A stretch of 64,000 nt of DNA from NCBI RefSeq assembly GCF_009914755.1, contig NC_060928.1; one strand, written 5' to 3'. The position numbers and the translations under genes are program-made. This DNA is from the human T2T-CHM13v2.0 reference genome, Homo sapiens. Shown here in pieces: positions 9,141 through 12,962 of the stretch (positions are counted from its first letter, which is position 1; each line of letters begins with the position of its first letter). The notes under the pieces are model-generated. The model had not been told where the DNA came from, did not search any database, and was given only the letters and a program-made list of their open reading frames with translations.

Positions 9141-9593
9141 CTGGAAATGCTTGTGAAGTGTGTTTCGGTAATCCTTGGTTAGAGTACATGTTAAGTGACA
9201 GTGTTCTTGCTTGGATGCACTGGAATCCAGGCTCACAAACTAACTTGGCCCAAATAATATTCAAGCTGTATACATTGCTAATGTTAAAACACATATGAGA
9301 TAAAGATAATAACTACTATTAATTTAGTGTTTAATATATAATTTATCTTGTATGCAGTGTTTTAACCACATTGTTTCACCAAATTTTCACTGAATCTTGA
9401 ACCCTAAAAAGATACTATTTTCTGAATGTTACCACTGATAAAAGTAAACTGGAGAGTTTAAGTATTTTGGCCCAAACTACTAAGTCTGTCTTATTCCAAA
9501 GGCCCTGCTCCTAACTATTAAATGAATGCATTAAATTTTAACTAAATTGTGGCATAAGCCTGAAAGCTACCTAGCACATTCAGATAGCATATT
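9141..9593 (+). repeat. Left arm (source) of ~455-bp inverted repeat
   Basis: Reverse complement aligns to 11025-11478; by hand about 32 substitutions and 2 small indels (~92-93% identity). Confidence 0.95.
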
Positions 9594-9786
9594 GTCTATG
9601 GGTTTGTGCATAGGAAAAACCCTGGAAATATAAGATGAACAATAGTTTTTTCTCTGTGTTGGGAATTACAGTTAATTTTTATTTTCTTTAGTATCCGGCC
9701 ATCATGAAAAGAAAAAAACTTTTTTAGTAATATTAAGAAATAAAAGTCTGATTTTTAAAAATATGTTTTCTAAAAATTCAGGTTTC

Positions 9787-11022
9787 TTATGGCTGTATAG
9801 TATTTCATGGTGTATATGTGCCACATTTGCTTTATCCAGTCTATCATTGATGGGCCTTTGGGTTGGTTCCAAGTCTTTGCTGTTGTGCATAGTGCTGCAA
9901 TAAATATATGTGTGCATGTGTCTTTATAGCAGAATGATTTATAATCCTTTGGGTATATACCCAGTGATGGGATTGCTGGGTCAAATGGTATTTCTGGTTC
10001 TAGATCCTAGAGGAATCACCACACTGTCTTCCACAATGGTTGAACTAATTTACACTCCCACAAACAGTGTAAAAGTGTTCCTATTTCTCCACATCCTCTC
10101 CAGCATCTGTGGTTTCCTGACTTTTTAATGATCTCCATTCTAACTGGCATGAGATGGTATCACATTGTGGTTTTGATTTGCATTTCTCTGATGACCAGTG
10201 ATGATGAGCTTTTCTTCATAAGTTTGTTGGCCACATAAATGTCTTGTTTTGAAAAGTGTCTGTTCACATCCTTCACCCACTTTTTGATGGGGTAGTTTGT
10301 TTTTTTCTTGTAAATTTGTTTAAGTTCCTTGTAGATTCTGGATATTAGCCCTTTGTCAGATGGATAGATTGCAAATATTTTCTCTCATTCTGTAGGTTGC
10401 CTATTCACTCTGATGATAGTTTCTTTTGCTGTGCAGAAGCTTTTTAGTTTAATTAGATCCCATTTGTCAATTTTGGCTTTCTTTGCAATTGCTTTTGGTG
10501 TTTTAGTCATGAAATATTTGCCCATCCCTATGTCCTGAATGATACTGTCTAGGTTTTCTTCTAGGGTTTTTATGGTTTTAGGTCTTATGTTTAAGTCTTT
10601 AATCCATCTTGAGTTAATTTTTATATAAGATGTAAGGAAGGGGTCCAGTTTCAGTTTTCTGATATGGCTAGCCAGTTTTCCCAACACCATTTGTTAAATA
10701 GAGAATCATTTCCTCGTTGCTTGTTTTTGTCAGGTTTGTCAAACATTGGATGGTTGTAGATGTGTGGTGTTGTTTCTGAGGCCTCTGTTCTGTTCCATTG
10801 GTCTATACGTCTGTTTTGGTACCAGTAACATGCTGTTTTGGTTACTGTAGCTTTGTAGTATACTTTGAAGTCAGGTAGCATAATGCCTCCAGCTTTGTTC
10901 TTTTTGCTTAAGATTGTCTTCGCTATACAGGCTCCTTTTTGGTTCCATATAAAATTTAAAGTAGTTTTTTTCTAATTCTGGGAAGAAAGTCAATGATAGC
11001 TTGATGGGAATAGCATTAAATC
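9787..11022 (-). mobile_element. L1PA7/8-like inverted segment (ORF2 C-terminal part) of a twin-primed insertion
   Basis: ORF2p remnants on the minus strand ([46 protein letters not shown]); begins directly after TSD AAAAATTCAGGTTTCTT (9772-9788). Confidence 0.95.
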
Positions 11023-11024
11023 CT

Positions 11025-11481
11025 AATATGCTATCTGAATGTGCTAGGTAGCTTCCAGGCTTACACCACAATTTAGTTAAAATTTAATGCATTCATTTAA
11101 TAGTTAGGAGCAGGGTCTTTGGAATAAGACAGACCTAGTAGTTTGGGCCAAATACTTAAACTCTCCATAGTTTACTTTTCTCAATCGTGATGTGCAGAAA
11201 ATTGTATCTTCTAAGGGTTCAAGATTCAGTGAAGATTTGGTGAAACAATGTGGTTAAAGCACTGCATACAAGATAAATTATATATTAAACACAAAATTAA
11301 TAGTAGTTATTATCTTTATTTCATATGTGTTTTAACATTAGCAATGTATACATCTTGAATATTATTTGTGCCAAGTTAGTCTGTGAGCCTGGATTCCAGT
11401 ACATCCAAGCAAGAATTCTGTCACTTAACATACACTCTGACCAAGGATTATTAAAACACACTTCACAAACATTTCCAGCAG
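11025..11481 (-). repeat. Right arm of inverted repeat: flank-derived filler inside the L1
   Basis: Inverted copy of 9141-9593 lying between the antisense and sense L1 pieces. Confidence 0.95.
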
Positions 11482-11698
11482 GAACAATGAACAATGGGAA
11501 CACATGGACACAAGGAGGGTAACATCACACACTGGGGCCTGTTGGGGGTTGGGGGGCTGGGGGAGGGATAGCATTAGGAGAAATACTTAATGTAGATGAT
11601 GGGTTGATGGGTGCAGCAAACCACCATGGCACATGTATCCCTATGTAACAAACCTGCATGTTCTGCACAGGTATCCCAGAACTTAAAGTATAAAAAAA
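11482..11698 (+). mobile_element. L1PA7/8-like 3' end with short A tail
   Basis: GAACAATGGGAACACATGGACAC...G-rich tract...TATCCCAGAACTTAAAGTATAAAAAAA; second TSD copy AAAAAATCAGGTTTCTT at 11693-11709. Confidence 0.95.
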
Positions 11699-12962
11699 TC
11701 AGGTTTCTTTTAGTCCACAGATCTGGTGACCAAGTGCTGGATGAATTTATTAAGGAAATGTAGGGCCACTTTGCCACCAACCACTTGGCCAACTGGCCAA
11801 TTGCCCTTTCTTTTTTGTCTTCCATTATAGCTTCCCTTGTAGCTCTAGGTGTTTAGGTGAGGAGACATTCACTTCCACTCTGTCAGCTCACTAAACCCTT
11901 GCAAGTCTGCTTTCCGTGAATCTCAAGTGTCATCTTTTCATCTCTATGGGCAAGACTGAATAAATAGATTTTTCATGCCTTTGCCTCTTGGCTCTTAAAA
12001 AAGTTCTAAAGACAAACAGAATCCAGTTGCTCAACTATTTATTTTGTGTTGGATTGATTGGTACATTAAGTAAGTAAAAGTAGTATTTTGCTTTTTCATC
12101 ATCTGTAGATAAAACAGGGATGTGTGTTGGGTTGTTGAGTTCCTTTTCTGTTGACTCTACCTAATTCCACAGATTCAACCACAGAACATTGGATGATTAC
12201 TTAGTAAATAACCTCAATCACTTCTTAGATTTCTACTTCATCAATGTTTGTGTAGCAAACAGAACCTTGATAAGACCCAGGTTGATTGCAAAATGGATTT
12301 TCTGTGTATGTTGCCAGTGTTTTTTTTTCCCTGACAGCCTAGCTATATTTTGCAGATTTATATGCCTTCCAAAATTTGCATTCACTCCCTTCATATAAAT
12401 TTTTAAAAGATATTTACAGAATGCTGTAGTAATATTTTGAAAACACAGGTGGCTGGATTGAAATTAATATACCTCTGCAAAAGATTGTAGAGAAAAATGT
12501 GTAACTTAATAAGTATTTCAGCCAGAAAATGACAACCCTTCTTGTGATTAAGCGTTGAAATACTGTCAAATTCAAGTGATTAATTATATTATGGGAAGGC
12601 ATTAAAATTTTATGATGAGAACTGAAATCCGAATTATAAAGTGGATATTCAACGAATGACACTGCCCTTTACTGCCATCTGTACTTCAGAGTTTCTCTGC
12701 TTTATTAAATCTGTAAGCACATACATTTAAAAAAAAGTTAACTTGAAGGCCCACTAACACATTTCCTACTTTTCCTTATTACTGCATTGTCAATTTTGAT
12801 CACAATACTGCTTTTTTCTTCCTGCCTTAGGCTATGTCCTATTCCATTGTATAGCATATAACATTAAAAATTAGCCAATGTATTTAACTATTAATACATT
12901 TTAGGCATTTAGGTTTTCACATTTTTTTCCTGTTATAAGTAATACCATGTAATATTTGATTC

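What the first reader, a model, noticed from the sequence alone, without database searches (positions are those of the whole stretch)
9141..11709. Twin-primed L1 that captured ~455 bp of its own upstream flank, inverted, at the inversion junction
Seen: TSD AAAAATTCAGGTTTCTT (9772-9788), antisense L1 (9787-11022), ~455 bp of non-L1 DNA (11025-11481), sense L1 3' end with A tail (11482-11698), then TSD AAAAAATCAGGTTTCTT (11693-11709, 1 mismatch). The filler is the reverse complement of 9141-9593, unique DNA ending ~180 bp upstream of the insertion site. By hand the copies differ at ~32 positions plus 2 indels, including reciprocal CA/TG pairs (GGCATA vs GGTGTA) expected if ancestral CpGs decayed separately in each copy. 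Established: antisense-then-sense structure inside one TSD is the twin-priming signature, and that junction normally has only microhomology, a small deletion or a few extra bases. Inference: during integration a nascent strand switched template onto local DNA (fold-back or strand invasion) or onto an RNA from this locus, copied ~455 nt, then joined the other cDNA. This is not a 3' transduction: the captured DNA comes from the target site and lies inside the element. The ~7% divergence is broadly compatible with an L1PA7/8-age event.
Basis: partly seen in the sequence, partly recalled or inferred. Interest (0 to 1): 0.8.

Follow-up and report, generated by a model that had tools for sequence, protein, structure and literature searches.

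The report
Inverted L1 insertion carrying copied flank
An old L1 retrotransposon on human chromosome 4 inserted partly backwards and trapped a 454-base inverted copy of the neighbouring DNA at its internal joint, a rare by-product of L1 integration that has already been described in somatic cells.

Summary
A 16/17 target-site duplication (9772-9788 / 11693-11709) encloses four parts. These are an inverted L1 ORF2-3' segment (9789-11022), a 454-nt reverse-complement copy (11025-11478) of 9141-9593, two small tandem micro-duplications, and a sense L1 3' end with A-tail (11489-11698).

The two copies differ at 32 of 452 aligned positions plus 2 indels. The source occurs nowhere else in the T2T genome. 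The L1 anatomy meets every twin-priming criterion that could be tested here.

The copy most likely arose in the same event. It sits exactly at the inversion joint, and its per-copy divergence (2.8-3.5%) lies within the bracket for the L1's own post-insertion divergence (3.0-5.7%). A later, separate inverted duplication cannot be excluded without primate orthologues.

The mechanism is not new. L1 insertions with fold-back inverted duplication of upstream target DNA, including one combined with twin priming, are reported by Nam 2023, Mendez-Dorantes 2024/26 and Zumalave 2024, and by Gilbert 2005 as cited there.

This copy is an old, presumably germline, example. It is larger (454 nt against 52-220 nt) and was copied from 178 nt away from the break. 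It is a new member of a known kind, of modest interest.

The parts
9120..9134 (+). Patch just beyond the copied stretch. Its reverse complement resembles the L1 sequence at the start of the sense segment. It is a candidate microhomology for the template switch or for annealing.
   Evidence: 13 of 16 positions with 2 gaps against 4 related L1 copies. Shuffle P is 0.024-0.031 (5,000 shuffles each).
9141..9593 (+). Source of the copy: single-copy, AT-rich (33% G+C) flank DNA.
   Evidence: Alignment. Only 2 places in the whole assembly, both here. G+C. Not masked as a repeat in the hub's annotation.
9594..9771 (+). 178 nt of flank between the source and the insertion site. It was not copied.
   Evidence: Searches find no second copy.
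9772..9788 (+). 5' target-site duplication. The bottom-strand nick site reads TTTTT/AG.
   Evidence: family D4, 16 of 17; sequence.
9789..11022 (-). Inverted L1 segment, 1,234 nt: the C-terminal third of ORF2, downstream of the RT domain.
   Evidence: 90-91% identical to genomic L1 copies over its full length. Aligns to positions 1501-2734 of locus L019, whose frame has RVT_1 at aa 202-448. The junction with the TSD shows 5 of 6 nt microhomology.
11023..11024 (.). Two orphan bases (CT) at the junction between inverted L1 and filler. There is no microhomology here.
   Evidence: Alignment to 12 displayed relatives and to the source.
11025..11478 (-). Filler: reverse-complement copy of 9141-9593.
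   Evidence: 452 aligned positions, 32 mismatches, 2 indels.
11476..11495 (+). Junction between filler and sense L1, with two adjacent tandem micro-duplications: CAG x2 (11476-11481) and GAACAAT x2 (11482-11495).
   Evidence: Sequence. All 35 relatives listed carry a single copy of the heptamer-like motif.
11489..11698 (+). Sense L1 3' end with a short A-tail.
   Evidence: 92-94% identical to genomic L1 3' ends, with matches starting at 11487-11490. It is colinear with the inverted piece in relatives, with about 115-121 nt of L1 missing between the two.
11693..11709 (+). 3' target-site duplication, overlapping the A-tail.
9406..9439 (.). Cluster of 10 of the 32 differences within 34 nt (partner stretch 11180-11213). 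Unexplained.
   Evidence: P = 0.0027 in 20,000 random placements. No donor sequence in the window.

Best explanation
This is one L1 integration event of the twin-priming type. During it, about 454 nt of the upstream (reciprocal-end) flank were copied from DNA in inverted orientation and trapped between the two L1 cDNAs.

Shown: the L1 endonuclease site, the TSD, the sense 3' piece with A-tail, and the inverted piece that starts at an internal L1 site with 5/6 nt microhomology to the target's 3' end. Also shown is that the filler is a copy of unique DNA lying 178-630 nt upstream.

Inferred: after staggered nicking, the bottom-strand 3' end primed the first cDNA on the poly(A). The top-strand 3' end primed a second cDNA internally on the same RNA, giving 1,234 nt. 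Before the two ends were joined, one nascent 3' end left the L1 RNA and was extended on the upstream flank. Two routes fit.

(a) The first cDNA invaded the upstream duplex. Its 3' end resembles 9120-9134 (13/16). It copied the bottom strand towards the break and stopped at 9593, possibly at a resected 5' end. It was then joined to the second cDNA without homology, which would explain the 2 orphan nt.

(b) The second cDNA folded back onto its own resected top strand at 9593 and copied leftwards to 9141. It then annealed to the first cDNA through the same 13/16 patch.

Route (a) accounts better for the absence of any microhomology at the 9593 junction. Route (b) is the model drawn in the literature. 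The CAG and GAACAAT micro-duplications at the other junction look like slippage during the final joining.
For: Twin-priming anatomy is complete:
- TSD 16/17.
- Bottom-strand TTTTT/AG nick site and A-tail.
- The inverted and sense pieces are colinear parts of one L1, with about 115-121 nt missing.
- 5/6 microhomology at the TSD/L1 junction.
- Both pieces show the same private divergence, 0.052 and 0.053.

The filler is an inverted copy of unique nearby DNA.

The filler lies exactly between the two L1 pieces. Neither piece continues on the other side of it.

Age: per-copy divergence of the arms is 3.5% over all sites (32 over 2x452) and 2.8% at non-CpG sites (25 over 2x444). The L1's strictly private substitutions are 3.0% (40 of 1,337 columns), or 4.4% including states shared with more than 2 relatives. 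The ratio is 0.64-1.18 with P 0.06-0.9.

Two reciprocal CpG decays show that both copies have aged independently.

The 13/16 similarity sits at the template's end.

Precedent in print:
- Nam 2023 reports 3 insertions with fold-back inverted duplication of 5' upstream target DNA and 1 with this plus an internal inversion, beside 354 with inversion only (passages).
- Mendez-Dorantes and colleagues report an inverted duplication on the reciprocal end with the TSD preserved (passages).
- Zumalave and colleagues report 22 templated insertions (passages).
Against: Simultaneity is not demonstrated. The maximum-likelihood terminal branch of this L1 is 0.057 over all sites and 0.056 at non-CpG sites with 61 relatives. 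That is about twice the per-copy divergence of the arms (0.028-0.037). Without the mismatch cluster the arms are at 2.2%, which differs from 4.4% at P = 0.007. On that reading the copy could be younger than the L1, unless gene conversion between the arms slowed their divergence. The longest identical run, 50 nt, is not unusual.

The size (454 nt) and the 178-nt offset from the break lie outside the ranges quoted for somatic cases: 52-220 nt, and templates usually under 250 nt next to the site.

There is no microhomology at the 9593 junction, so priming by fold-back is not directly supported. The 13/16 patch has only P of about 0.03, and I found it after inspecting the junction.
Confidence: 0.62

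Rival explanations
1. Two events. An ordinary twin-primed L1 inserted first. Millions of years later an unrelated short inverted duplication arose by replicative template switching or break repair. It placed a copy of 9141-9593 at, or over, the inversion joint, possibly deleting some L1 there.
For: The arms are about half as diverged per copy (0.028-0.037) as this L1's maximum-likelihood terminal branch (0.056-0.057). Short inverted duplications unrelated to mobile elements are a common class of human structural variant: 277 events with median length 284 bp (passages of PMC12350158). The missing L1 stretch (about 115-121 nt) is larger than the 1-10 nt most often seen at twin-priming joints (32 of 32 experimental cases in PMC11702581). 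Loss of L1 sequence in a later event would explain that.
Against: The insertion point would have to coincide with the one joint in a 1.45-kb element. From the counts, my rough estimate (inference) is that integration-coupled origin is 10-100 times more likely a priori. Strictly private L1 substitutions (3.0%) match the arms (2.8-3.5%), so the age gap may not be real. Partial loss of internal L1 sequence at 5' inversions is reported as frequent (PMC10415145).
Confidence: 0.2
2. One event, but the template was RNA. ORF2p switched from the L1 RNA to a local transcript. For the first cDNA this would be a minus-strand RNA whose 5' end lay near 9593. ORF2p copied about 454 nt, added 2 untemplated bases at the RNA's end, and the product was joined to the twin-primed cDNA.
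For: Template switching by the L1 reverse transcriptase to other RNAs is well documented (PMC13174262; PMC11702581). Nam 2023 saw one insertion with co-inserted pre-mRNA transcribed near the site. The orphan bases at the 9593 junction and the 13/16 acceptor-like similarity at the other end fit microhomology-guided switching and run-off at a 5' end.
Against: No gene is annotated in the window or within 100 kb upstream (hub annotation). By eye the copied stretch has no splice-site-like borders and no A-tail. In Nam 2023 DNA-type fold-back cases outnumber the RNA case 4 to 1. Sequence alone cannot tell an unspliced RNA copy from a DNA copy.
Confidence: 0.13
3. There was no twin priming. A plain 5'-truncated sense L1 inserted and was later rearranged by a complex replication-based event that inverted its 5' part and added the inverted flank copy.
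For: Complex inversions with flanking inverted duplications exist in human genomes (PMC12350158).
Against: At least three template switches would be needed, two of them landing within a base or two of the TSD/L1 boundary. The 5/6 microhomology between the TSD end and the internal L1 site is the expected trace of internal priming.
Confidence: 0.03
4. Assembly artefact: a mis-join or a falsely duplicated segment in the assembly.
For: None found. Read-level support could not be examined.
Against: The two copies differ at 32 positions and 2 indels, with independent CpG decay. An assembly duplication would not produce that.
Confidence: 0.01

Closest known systems
Twin priming (5'-inverted L1 insertions; Ostertag and Kazazian 2001, known to me through citing papers and recall, since the paper itself is not held)
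   Same: TSD around the whole insert, a sense 3' piece with A-tail, and an inverted piece from the adjacent upstream part of the same L1. There is microhomology at the internal priming site and an internal deletion at the joint.
   Different: The joint carries 454 nt of non-L1 DNA instead of a direct or microhomology junction. The internal L1 gap (about 115-121 nt) is on the large side.
[quoted passage not shown] 2023, PMC10191854 (passages read)
   Same: An inverted duplicate of upstream target DNA lies inside an otherwise canonical insertion. In one reported case it is combined with twin priming. The authors attribute it to extra DNA synthesis during resolution.
   Different: The reported extra synthesis is 52-220 bp, against 454 nt here. 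This copy starts 178 nt from the break and follows 1.2 kb of twin-primed cDNA. It is old and presumably germline, not somatic. The exact layout of their single combined case was not visible to me, because figures are not held.
L1 insertions with inverted duplication of genomic DNA on the reciprocal end (remodelling of ORF2p-induced double-strand-break ends); Mendez-Dorantes et al., bioRxiv 10.1101/2024.12.14.628481, versions of 2024 and 2026 (passages and one section read)
   Same: The reciprocal (upstream) end is the source and the TSD is preserved. [quoted passage not shown]
   Different: Their two examples show 2-bp homology and small hairpins at the bare genomic 3' end. Here the loop would be 1,431 nt, the 3' end is L1 cDNA, and no homology is seen at the would-be priming site.
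'Templated insertions' in tumour L1 insertions (22 instances; Zumalave et al., bioRxiv 10.1101/2024.08.27.596794, passages read), with the SDSA-like model credited there to Gilbert et al. 2005 (not held)
   Same: Non-L1 DNA from next to the insertion site is copied into the L1 during integration. In the proposed model the growing cDNA leaves the L1 RNA and pairs with nearby DNA, which matches route (a).
   Different: The templates are described as usually under 250 bp and immediately at the site. Orientation and any relation to twin priming are not stated in the passages I saw.
L1 chimeras with cellular RNAs (U6, 5S, tRNA, mRNA; PMC13174262, passages read)
   Same: A second template is copied and joined to the L1 within one set of TSDs. 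Antisense partners are attributed to twin priming.
   Different: Those partners are abundant RNAs from elsewhere, placed at the 5' end of the insert. Here the partner is unique DNA from the target's own flank and lies between two L1 pieces.
Replicative short inverted duplications unrelated to mobile elements (277 events, median 284 bp; Schloissnig et al. 2025, PMC12350158, passages read)
   Same: The size range, inverted orientation and nearness of copy to source agree, as do junctions with little or no homology.
   Different: Those events have no TSD or L1 context. Here the copy lies exactly at an L1 inversion joint inside a TSD pair.

Membership tests
Twin-primed (5'-inverted) L1 insertion | One target-site duplication flanks the whole composite | tested here: met
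   9772-9788 and 11693-11709 agree at 16 of 17.
Twin-primed (5'-inverted) L1 insertion | Sense-oriented L1 3' end with A-tail abutting the 3' TSD, and an endonuclease-type nick site | tested here: met
   11489-11698 is 92-94% identical to genomic L1 3' ends. The bottom strand reads TTTTT/AG at the nick. The TTTT/A class is listed as an EN site in PMC12016303.
Twin-primed (5'-inverted) L1 insertion | The inverted piece comes from the part of the same L1 directly upstream of the sense piece, with a small deletion or duplication | tested here: met
   In relatives that carry both parts, the end of the inverted piece and the start of the sense piece are colinear. They lie 108-128 nt apart, mostly 120-121, which leaves about 115-121 nt missing.
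Twin-primed (5'-inverted) L1 insertion | Microhomology between the target's top-strand 3' end and the internal L1 priming site | tested here: met
   The TSD ends TTTCTT where relatives read TTTTTT on that strand, 5 of 6.
Twin-primed (5'-inverted) L1 insertion | Both pieces have the same age and lineage | tested here: met
   Mean private divergence is 0.052 for the inverted piece and 0.053 for the sense piece at non-CpG sites. The relatives with the best 3' ends are also 88-91% identical over the inverted piece.
L1 insertion with fold-back or templated inverted duplication of target-site DNA | Non-L1 DNA inside the TSD pair that matches DNA next to the integration site, on the reciprocal-end side, in inverted orientation | tested here: met
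   11025-11478 is the reverse complement of 9141-9593, at 420 of 452 positions identical. The source lies 178-630 nt upstream and has no other copy in the genome.
L1 insertion with fold-back or templated inverted duplication of target-site DNA | The copy was made in the same event as the L1 insertion | tested here: inconclusive
   Position at the joint favours it. Per-copy arm divergence of 2.8-3.5% falls within the 3.0-5.7% bracket for the L1, but at its low end. Orthologues are not available with these tools.
L1 insertion with fold-back or templated inverted duplication of target-site DNA | Short homology at the point where the folded-back 3' end primes synthesis (2 bp in the published examples) | tested here: not met
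   At 11022-11025 there are 2 orphan bases and at most 1 nt of possible pairing. A 13/16 similarity lies at the other end of the copy instead.
3' or 5' transduction | The extra DNA derives from the flank of the source L1 locus and lies at an end of the insert | tested here: not met
   The extra DNA matches the target's own flank and lies between the two L1 pieces.
L1/RNA chimera by template switching | The partner sequence is an expressed RNA | not testable with these tools
   No expression data are available here. No gene is annotated in the window or within 100 kb upstream (hub annotation).
   2 places in 3.1 Gb, both at this locus. Very old, highly diverged repeat families would escape this search.

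The most novel reading that the evidence does not exclude
The whole insert records one continuous synthesis by the L1 polymerase across three templates. In this reading the first cDNA left the L1 RNA and invaded the intact upstream duplex at a 13/16-nt look-alike (9120-9134). It copied 454 nt of genomic DNA up to a resected 5' end at 9593, added two untemplated bases, and jumped onto the twin-primed cDNA. If so, microhomology-guided invasion of nearby duplex DNA by L1 cDNA operated in the primate germline. It can create inverted repeats of several hundred bases. Some fraction of short inverted duplications in primate genomes would then be by-products of L1 integration.
Probability: 0.2. Interest if true: 0.5.

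Novelty: new member of a known kind. Interest (0 to 1): 0.3.

Why it matters
The reported cases of this by-product that I found are somatic or from cultured cells, and recent. This locus suggests that the same side-reaction happened long ago, presumably in the germline of an anthropoid ancestor, and was retained.

It has three unusual features. The copy is about twice the quoted somatic size. It was taken from 178 nt away from the break. It was added after 1.2 kb of twin-primed cDNA. Together these imply either long resection of the reciprocal end or invasion of intact duplex DNA. Both junctions are preserved well enough to discuss.

The event also created a 454-nt inverted repeat with a 1.43-kb spacer. 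In principle such a repeat can form hairpin RNA or mediate inversion of the spacer. Neither was tested.

For a genome scan the practical lesson is that unique DNA at an L1 inversion joint should be compared with the insertion's own flanks.

Tried and rejected
1. Pfam on four stop-to-stop reading-frame fragments of the inverted piece gave 0 families for 4 of 4. Identity as L1 ORF2 was shown instead through a related copy carrying RVT_1.

2. I tried CpG decay as an independent clock. 5 of 6 ancestral CpG copies in the arms are decayed and none is kept in both arms. Calibration on 16 L1 CpG sites gave 73% decayed in short-branch copies and 82% in long-branch copies. The test therefore cannot separate the ages and was dropped.

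3. I searched for a closer sibling or source copy that would show the L1 was already old when copied. The best non-self matches are 91% over the full 1,234 nt (40 of 17,575 candidates scored). For the two halves they are 93% and 92% (40 of 7,013 and 40 of 11,556 scored). Of 40 further loci fetched, 26 covered the full piece and were 89-92% identical. No outlier was found, but most candidates were never scored.

4. I looked for a donor for the mismatch cluster. Only chance-level short matches occur in the window.

5. Gene-conversion tracts: the longest perfect run is 50 nt, which is not unusual for 32 differences in 452. With the cluster set aside, my hand chi-square on the counts gives roughly P 0.2, so the differences are not significantly uneven.

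6. A 7-nt inverted match (11010-11016 / 11027-11033) brackets the L1/filler junction. I could not fit it to either strand-switch geometry and treat it as chance.

7. APOBEC-type editing of the cDNA: the target's 40 private substitutions show no G>A or C>T excess (5 each).

9. Gilbert 2005 and Ostertag and Kazazian 2001 are not held. What I say of them comes from citing papers or recall.

10. A genome-wide scan for further cases was not possible.
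Full report
**What is there**

A 17-nt direct repeat (9772-9788 and 11693-11709, 16 of 17 identical) encloses 1.9 kb. Inside it, a gapped alignment pairs 9141-9593 with the reverse complement of 11025-11478. That alignment has 452 aligned positions, 32 mismatches (23 transitions, 9 transversions) and two indels of 2 and 1 nt.

The source keeps a CG at 9166-9167 where the copy reads TA. Both copies have therefore decayed independently from a common ancestor. That also argues against an assembly duplication.

A search of the whole 3.1-Gb assembly found 2 places, both at this locus (2 candidates, 2 scored). The window holds no third copy. Very old, highly diverged repeats would escape that search.

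**The L1 parts**

The stretch 9789-11022 (minus strand) matches thousands of genomic copies (17,575 first-look candidates, 40 scored). It is 90-91% identical to them over its full 1,234 nt. The stretch from about 11488 to 11698 (plus strand) matches L1 3' ends at 92-94% (3,334 candidates, 40 scored).

Pfam found nothing on four short frames of the inverted piece. In one related copy, however, the aligned region lies directly downstream of an RVT_1 domain (E 1.8e-45) in the same long frame. The inverted piece is therefore the C-terminal third of ORF2.

In relatives that carry both parts, the end of the inverted piece and the start of the sense piece are colinear. They lie 108-128 nt apart, mostly 120-121. 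About 115-121 nt of L1 are thus missing, depending on how the junction overlap is counted.

At the TSD/L1 junction the target's top strand ends TTTCTT where relatives read TTTTTT, which is 5 of 6. This is the trace expected if that 3' end primed internally on the L1 RNA. The bottom strand at the other nick reads TTTTT/AG. The two pieces have the same private divergence, 0.052 and 0.053 at non-CpG sites. Every criterion of twin priming that I could test is met.

**The junctions**

Between the inverted L1 and the filler lie two bases (11023-11024) that match neither partner. There is no microhomology there.

At the other junction, homology to the source ends at 11478. It is followed by a repeat of the preceding CAG (11479-11481) and an extra tandem copy of GAACAAT (11482-11488). 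Unambiguous L1 begins at 11489. All 35 relatives listed have a single copy of that motif.

Just beyond the end of the copied stretch, the reverse complement of 9120-9134 resembles the L1 sequence at the start of the sense piece. It agrees at 13 of 16 positions with two gaps, with shuffle P of 0.024-0.031 for four relatives of the target's own clade. I found this patch after inspecting the junction, so it is suggestive only.

**Timing**

I estimated the L1's own post-insertion divergence without building a consensus, in two ways.

- A maximum-likelihood tree gives a terminal branch of 0.061 with 35 relatives. With 61 relatives it gives 0.057 over all sites and 0.056 with CpG-prone columns masked.
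- Counting only substitutions private to this copy, at columns where at least 85% of the relatives agree, gives 40 of 1,337 (3.0%). Including states shared with more than two relatives gives 59 of 1,337 (4.4%).

The first measure is an upper bound, because lineage variants that the star-like tree cannot resolve load onto the tip. The second is a lower bound.

The arms differ by 7.1%, which is 3.5% per copy. At non-CpG sites the figure is 25 of 444, or 2.8% per copy. Without the mismatch cluster it is 18 of 414, or 2.2% per copy.

Against the private-substitution measures the ratio is 0.64-1.18 (P 0.06-0.9). Against the tree branch the arms look about half as old. Without the cluster the contrast with 4.4% reaches P = 0.007.

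The ages are therefore compatible, but only at the low end of the bracket. A younger filler, or a divergence slowed by gene conversion between the arms, cannot be excluded. A CpG-decay clock proved uninformative. No closer sibling or source copy turned up.

**Why one event is still the better reading**

The filler lies exactly between the two L1 pieces, and neither piece continues on its far side. A later, unrelated inverted duplication would have to land on, or delete across, one particular joint in a 1.45-kb element.

Published counts give a rough prior. Among somatic L1 insertions in normal colon clones, 354 had an internal inversion only. Three had a fold-back inverted duplication of upstream target DNA, and one had both (PMC10191854, passages). 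In 1,019 human genomes there are 277 inverted duplications outside mobile elements, against 1,047 twin-primed L1 insertions (PMC12350158, passages).

From these counts I estimate, as inference only, that integration-coupled origin is favoured by roughly 10-100 to 1 before the timing evidence. The timing evidence shifts this by at most a few-fold the other way.

**Mechanism**

Two DNA-templated routes fit the strand polarities.

(a) The first cDNA, primed on the poly(A), left the L1 RNA about 210 nt in. It paired with the bottom strand of the upstream duplex at the 13/16 patch and copied it towards the break, from 9141 to 9593. It stopped there, possibly at a resected 5' end, and was joined without homology to the end of the twin-primed cDNA. 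This corresponds to the SDSA-like model that Zumalave and colleagues credit to Gilbert 2005.

(b) The twin-primed cDNA folded back onto its own resected top strand at 9593 and copied leftwards to 9141. It then annealed to the first cDNA through the same patch. This is the resection, self-annealing and priming model drawn by Mendez-Dorantes and colleagues, who show inverted duplications on the reciprocal end with the TSD preserved.

Route (a) accounts better for the homology-free junction at 9593, since their examples show 2 bp of homology at the priming site. Route (b) has the published precedent.

A third variant replaces the DNA template with a local transcript. One such somatic case is reported. 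No gene is annotated here, and sequence alone cannot decide.

The CAG and GAACAAT micro-duplications are what slippage during microhomology-mediated joining would leave. That is inference.

**Comparison with what is known**

The kind is known: extra DNA copied from beside the integration site, including inverted duplicates of the upstream end, with or without twin priming. It is reported in cultured cells, tumours and normal somatic clones.

I searched the held library four times for such events. Among the papers whose passages I read, I saw no old, fixed, presumably germline example described. This is not a claim that none is in print. Supplements and figures were not read, and the two founding papers are not held.

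This copy differs from the reported cases in four ways:
- its size, 454 nt against 52-220 nt or 'usually under 250 bp';
- the 178-nt offset between template and break;
- its place after 1.2 kb of twin-primed cDNA, which would make a 1,431-nt loop in a fold-back;
- its age.

**Verdict**

The locus is a new member of a known kind, and I score interest at about 0.3. The decisive test is the orthologous locus in apes and Old World monkeys.

Noticed in passing
window 9406-9439 (partner 11180-11213): Ten of the 32 differences between source and copy, five of them transversions, fall within 34 nt. P = 0.0027 by random placement. No donor sequence lies in the window. It could be error-prone synthesis when the copy was made, or a later local event. 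An outgroup would show which copy changed.
   Followed up: partly
window 11476-11495: Two adjacent tandem micro-duplications, CAG x2 and GAACAAT x2, lie exactly at the filler/sense-L1 junction. They are absent from all 35 related L1 copies listed. They look like slippage during end joining.
   Followed up: partly
window 11010-11016 and 11027-11033: A 7-nt inverted match (ATAGCAT / ATGCTAT) brackets the junction between inverted L1 and filler. I could not fit it to either strand-switch geometry, so it is probably chance.
   Followed up: partly
window 35339-36727 (minus strand); also 46620-46933: An older L1 copy covers the same ORF2-3' region and is 75% identical to the inverted piece. A second, weaker fragment is 68% identical. 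The older copy independently shows that the inverted and sense pieces are colinear in L1.
   Followed up: partly
window 9141-9593 with 11025-11478: The event left a 454-nt inverted repeat with a 1,431-nt spacer, the arms being 93% identical. Such a pair could form hairpin RNA if transcribed, or flip the spacer by recombination. Neither was examined.
   Followed up: no
window 9699-9771: The hub's repeat mask begins at 9699, 73 nt before the TSD, in A/T-rich low-complexity DNA. This is a typical L1 endonuclease-friendly target region.
   Followed up: no
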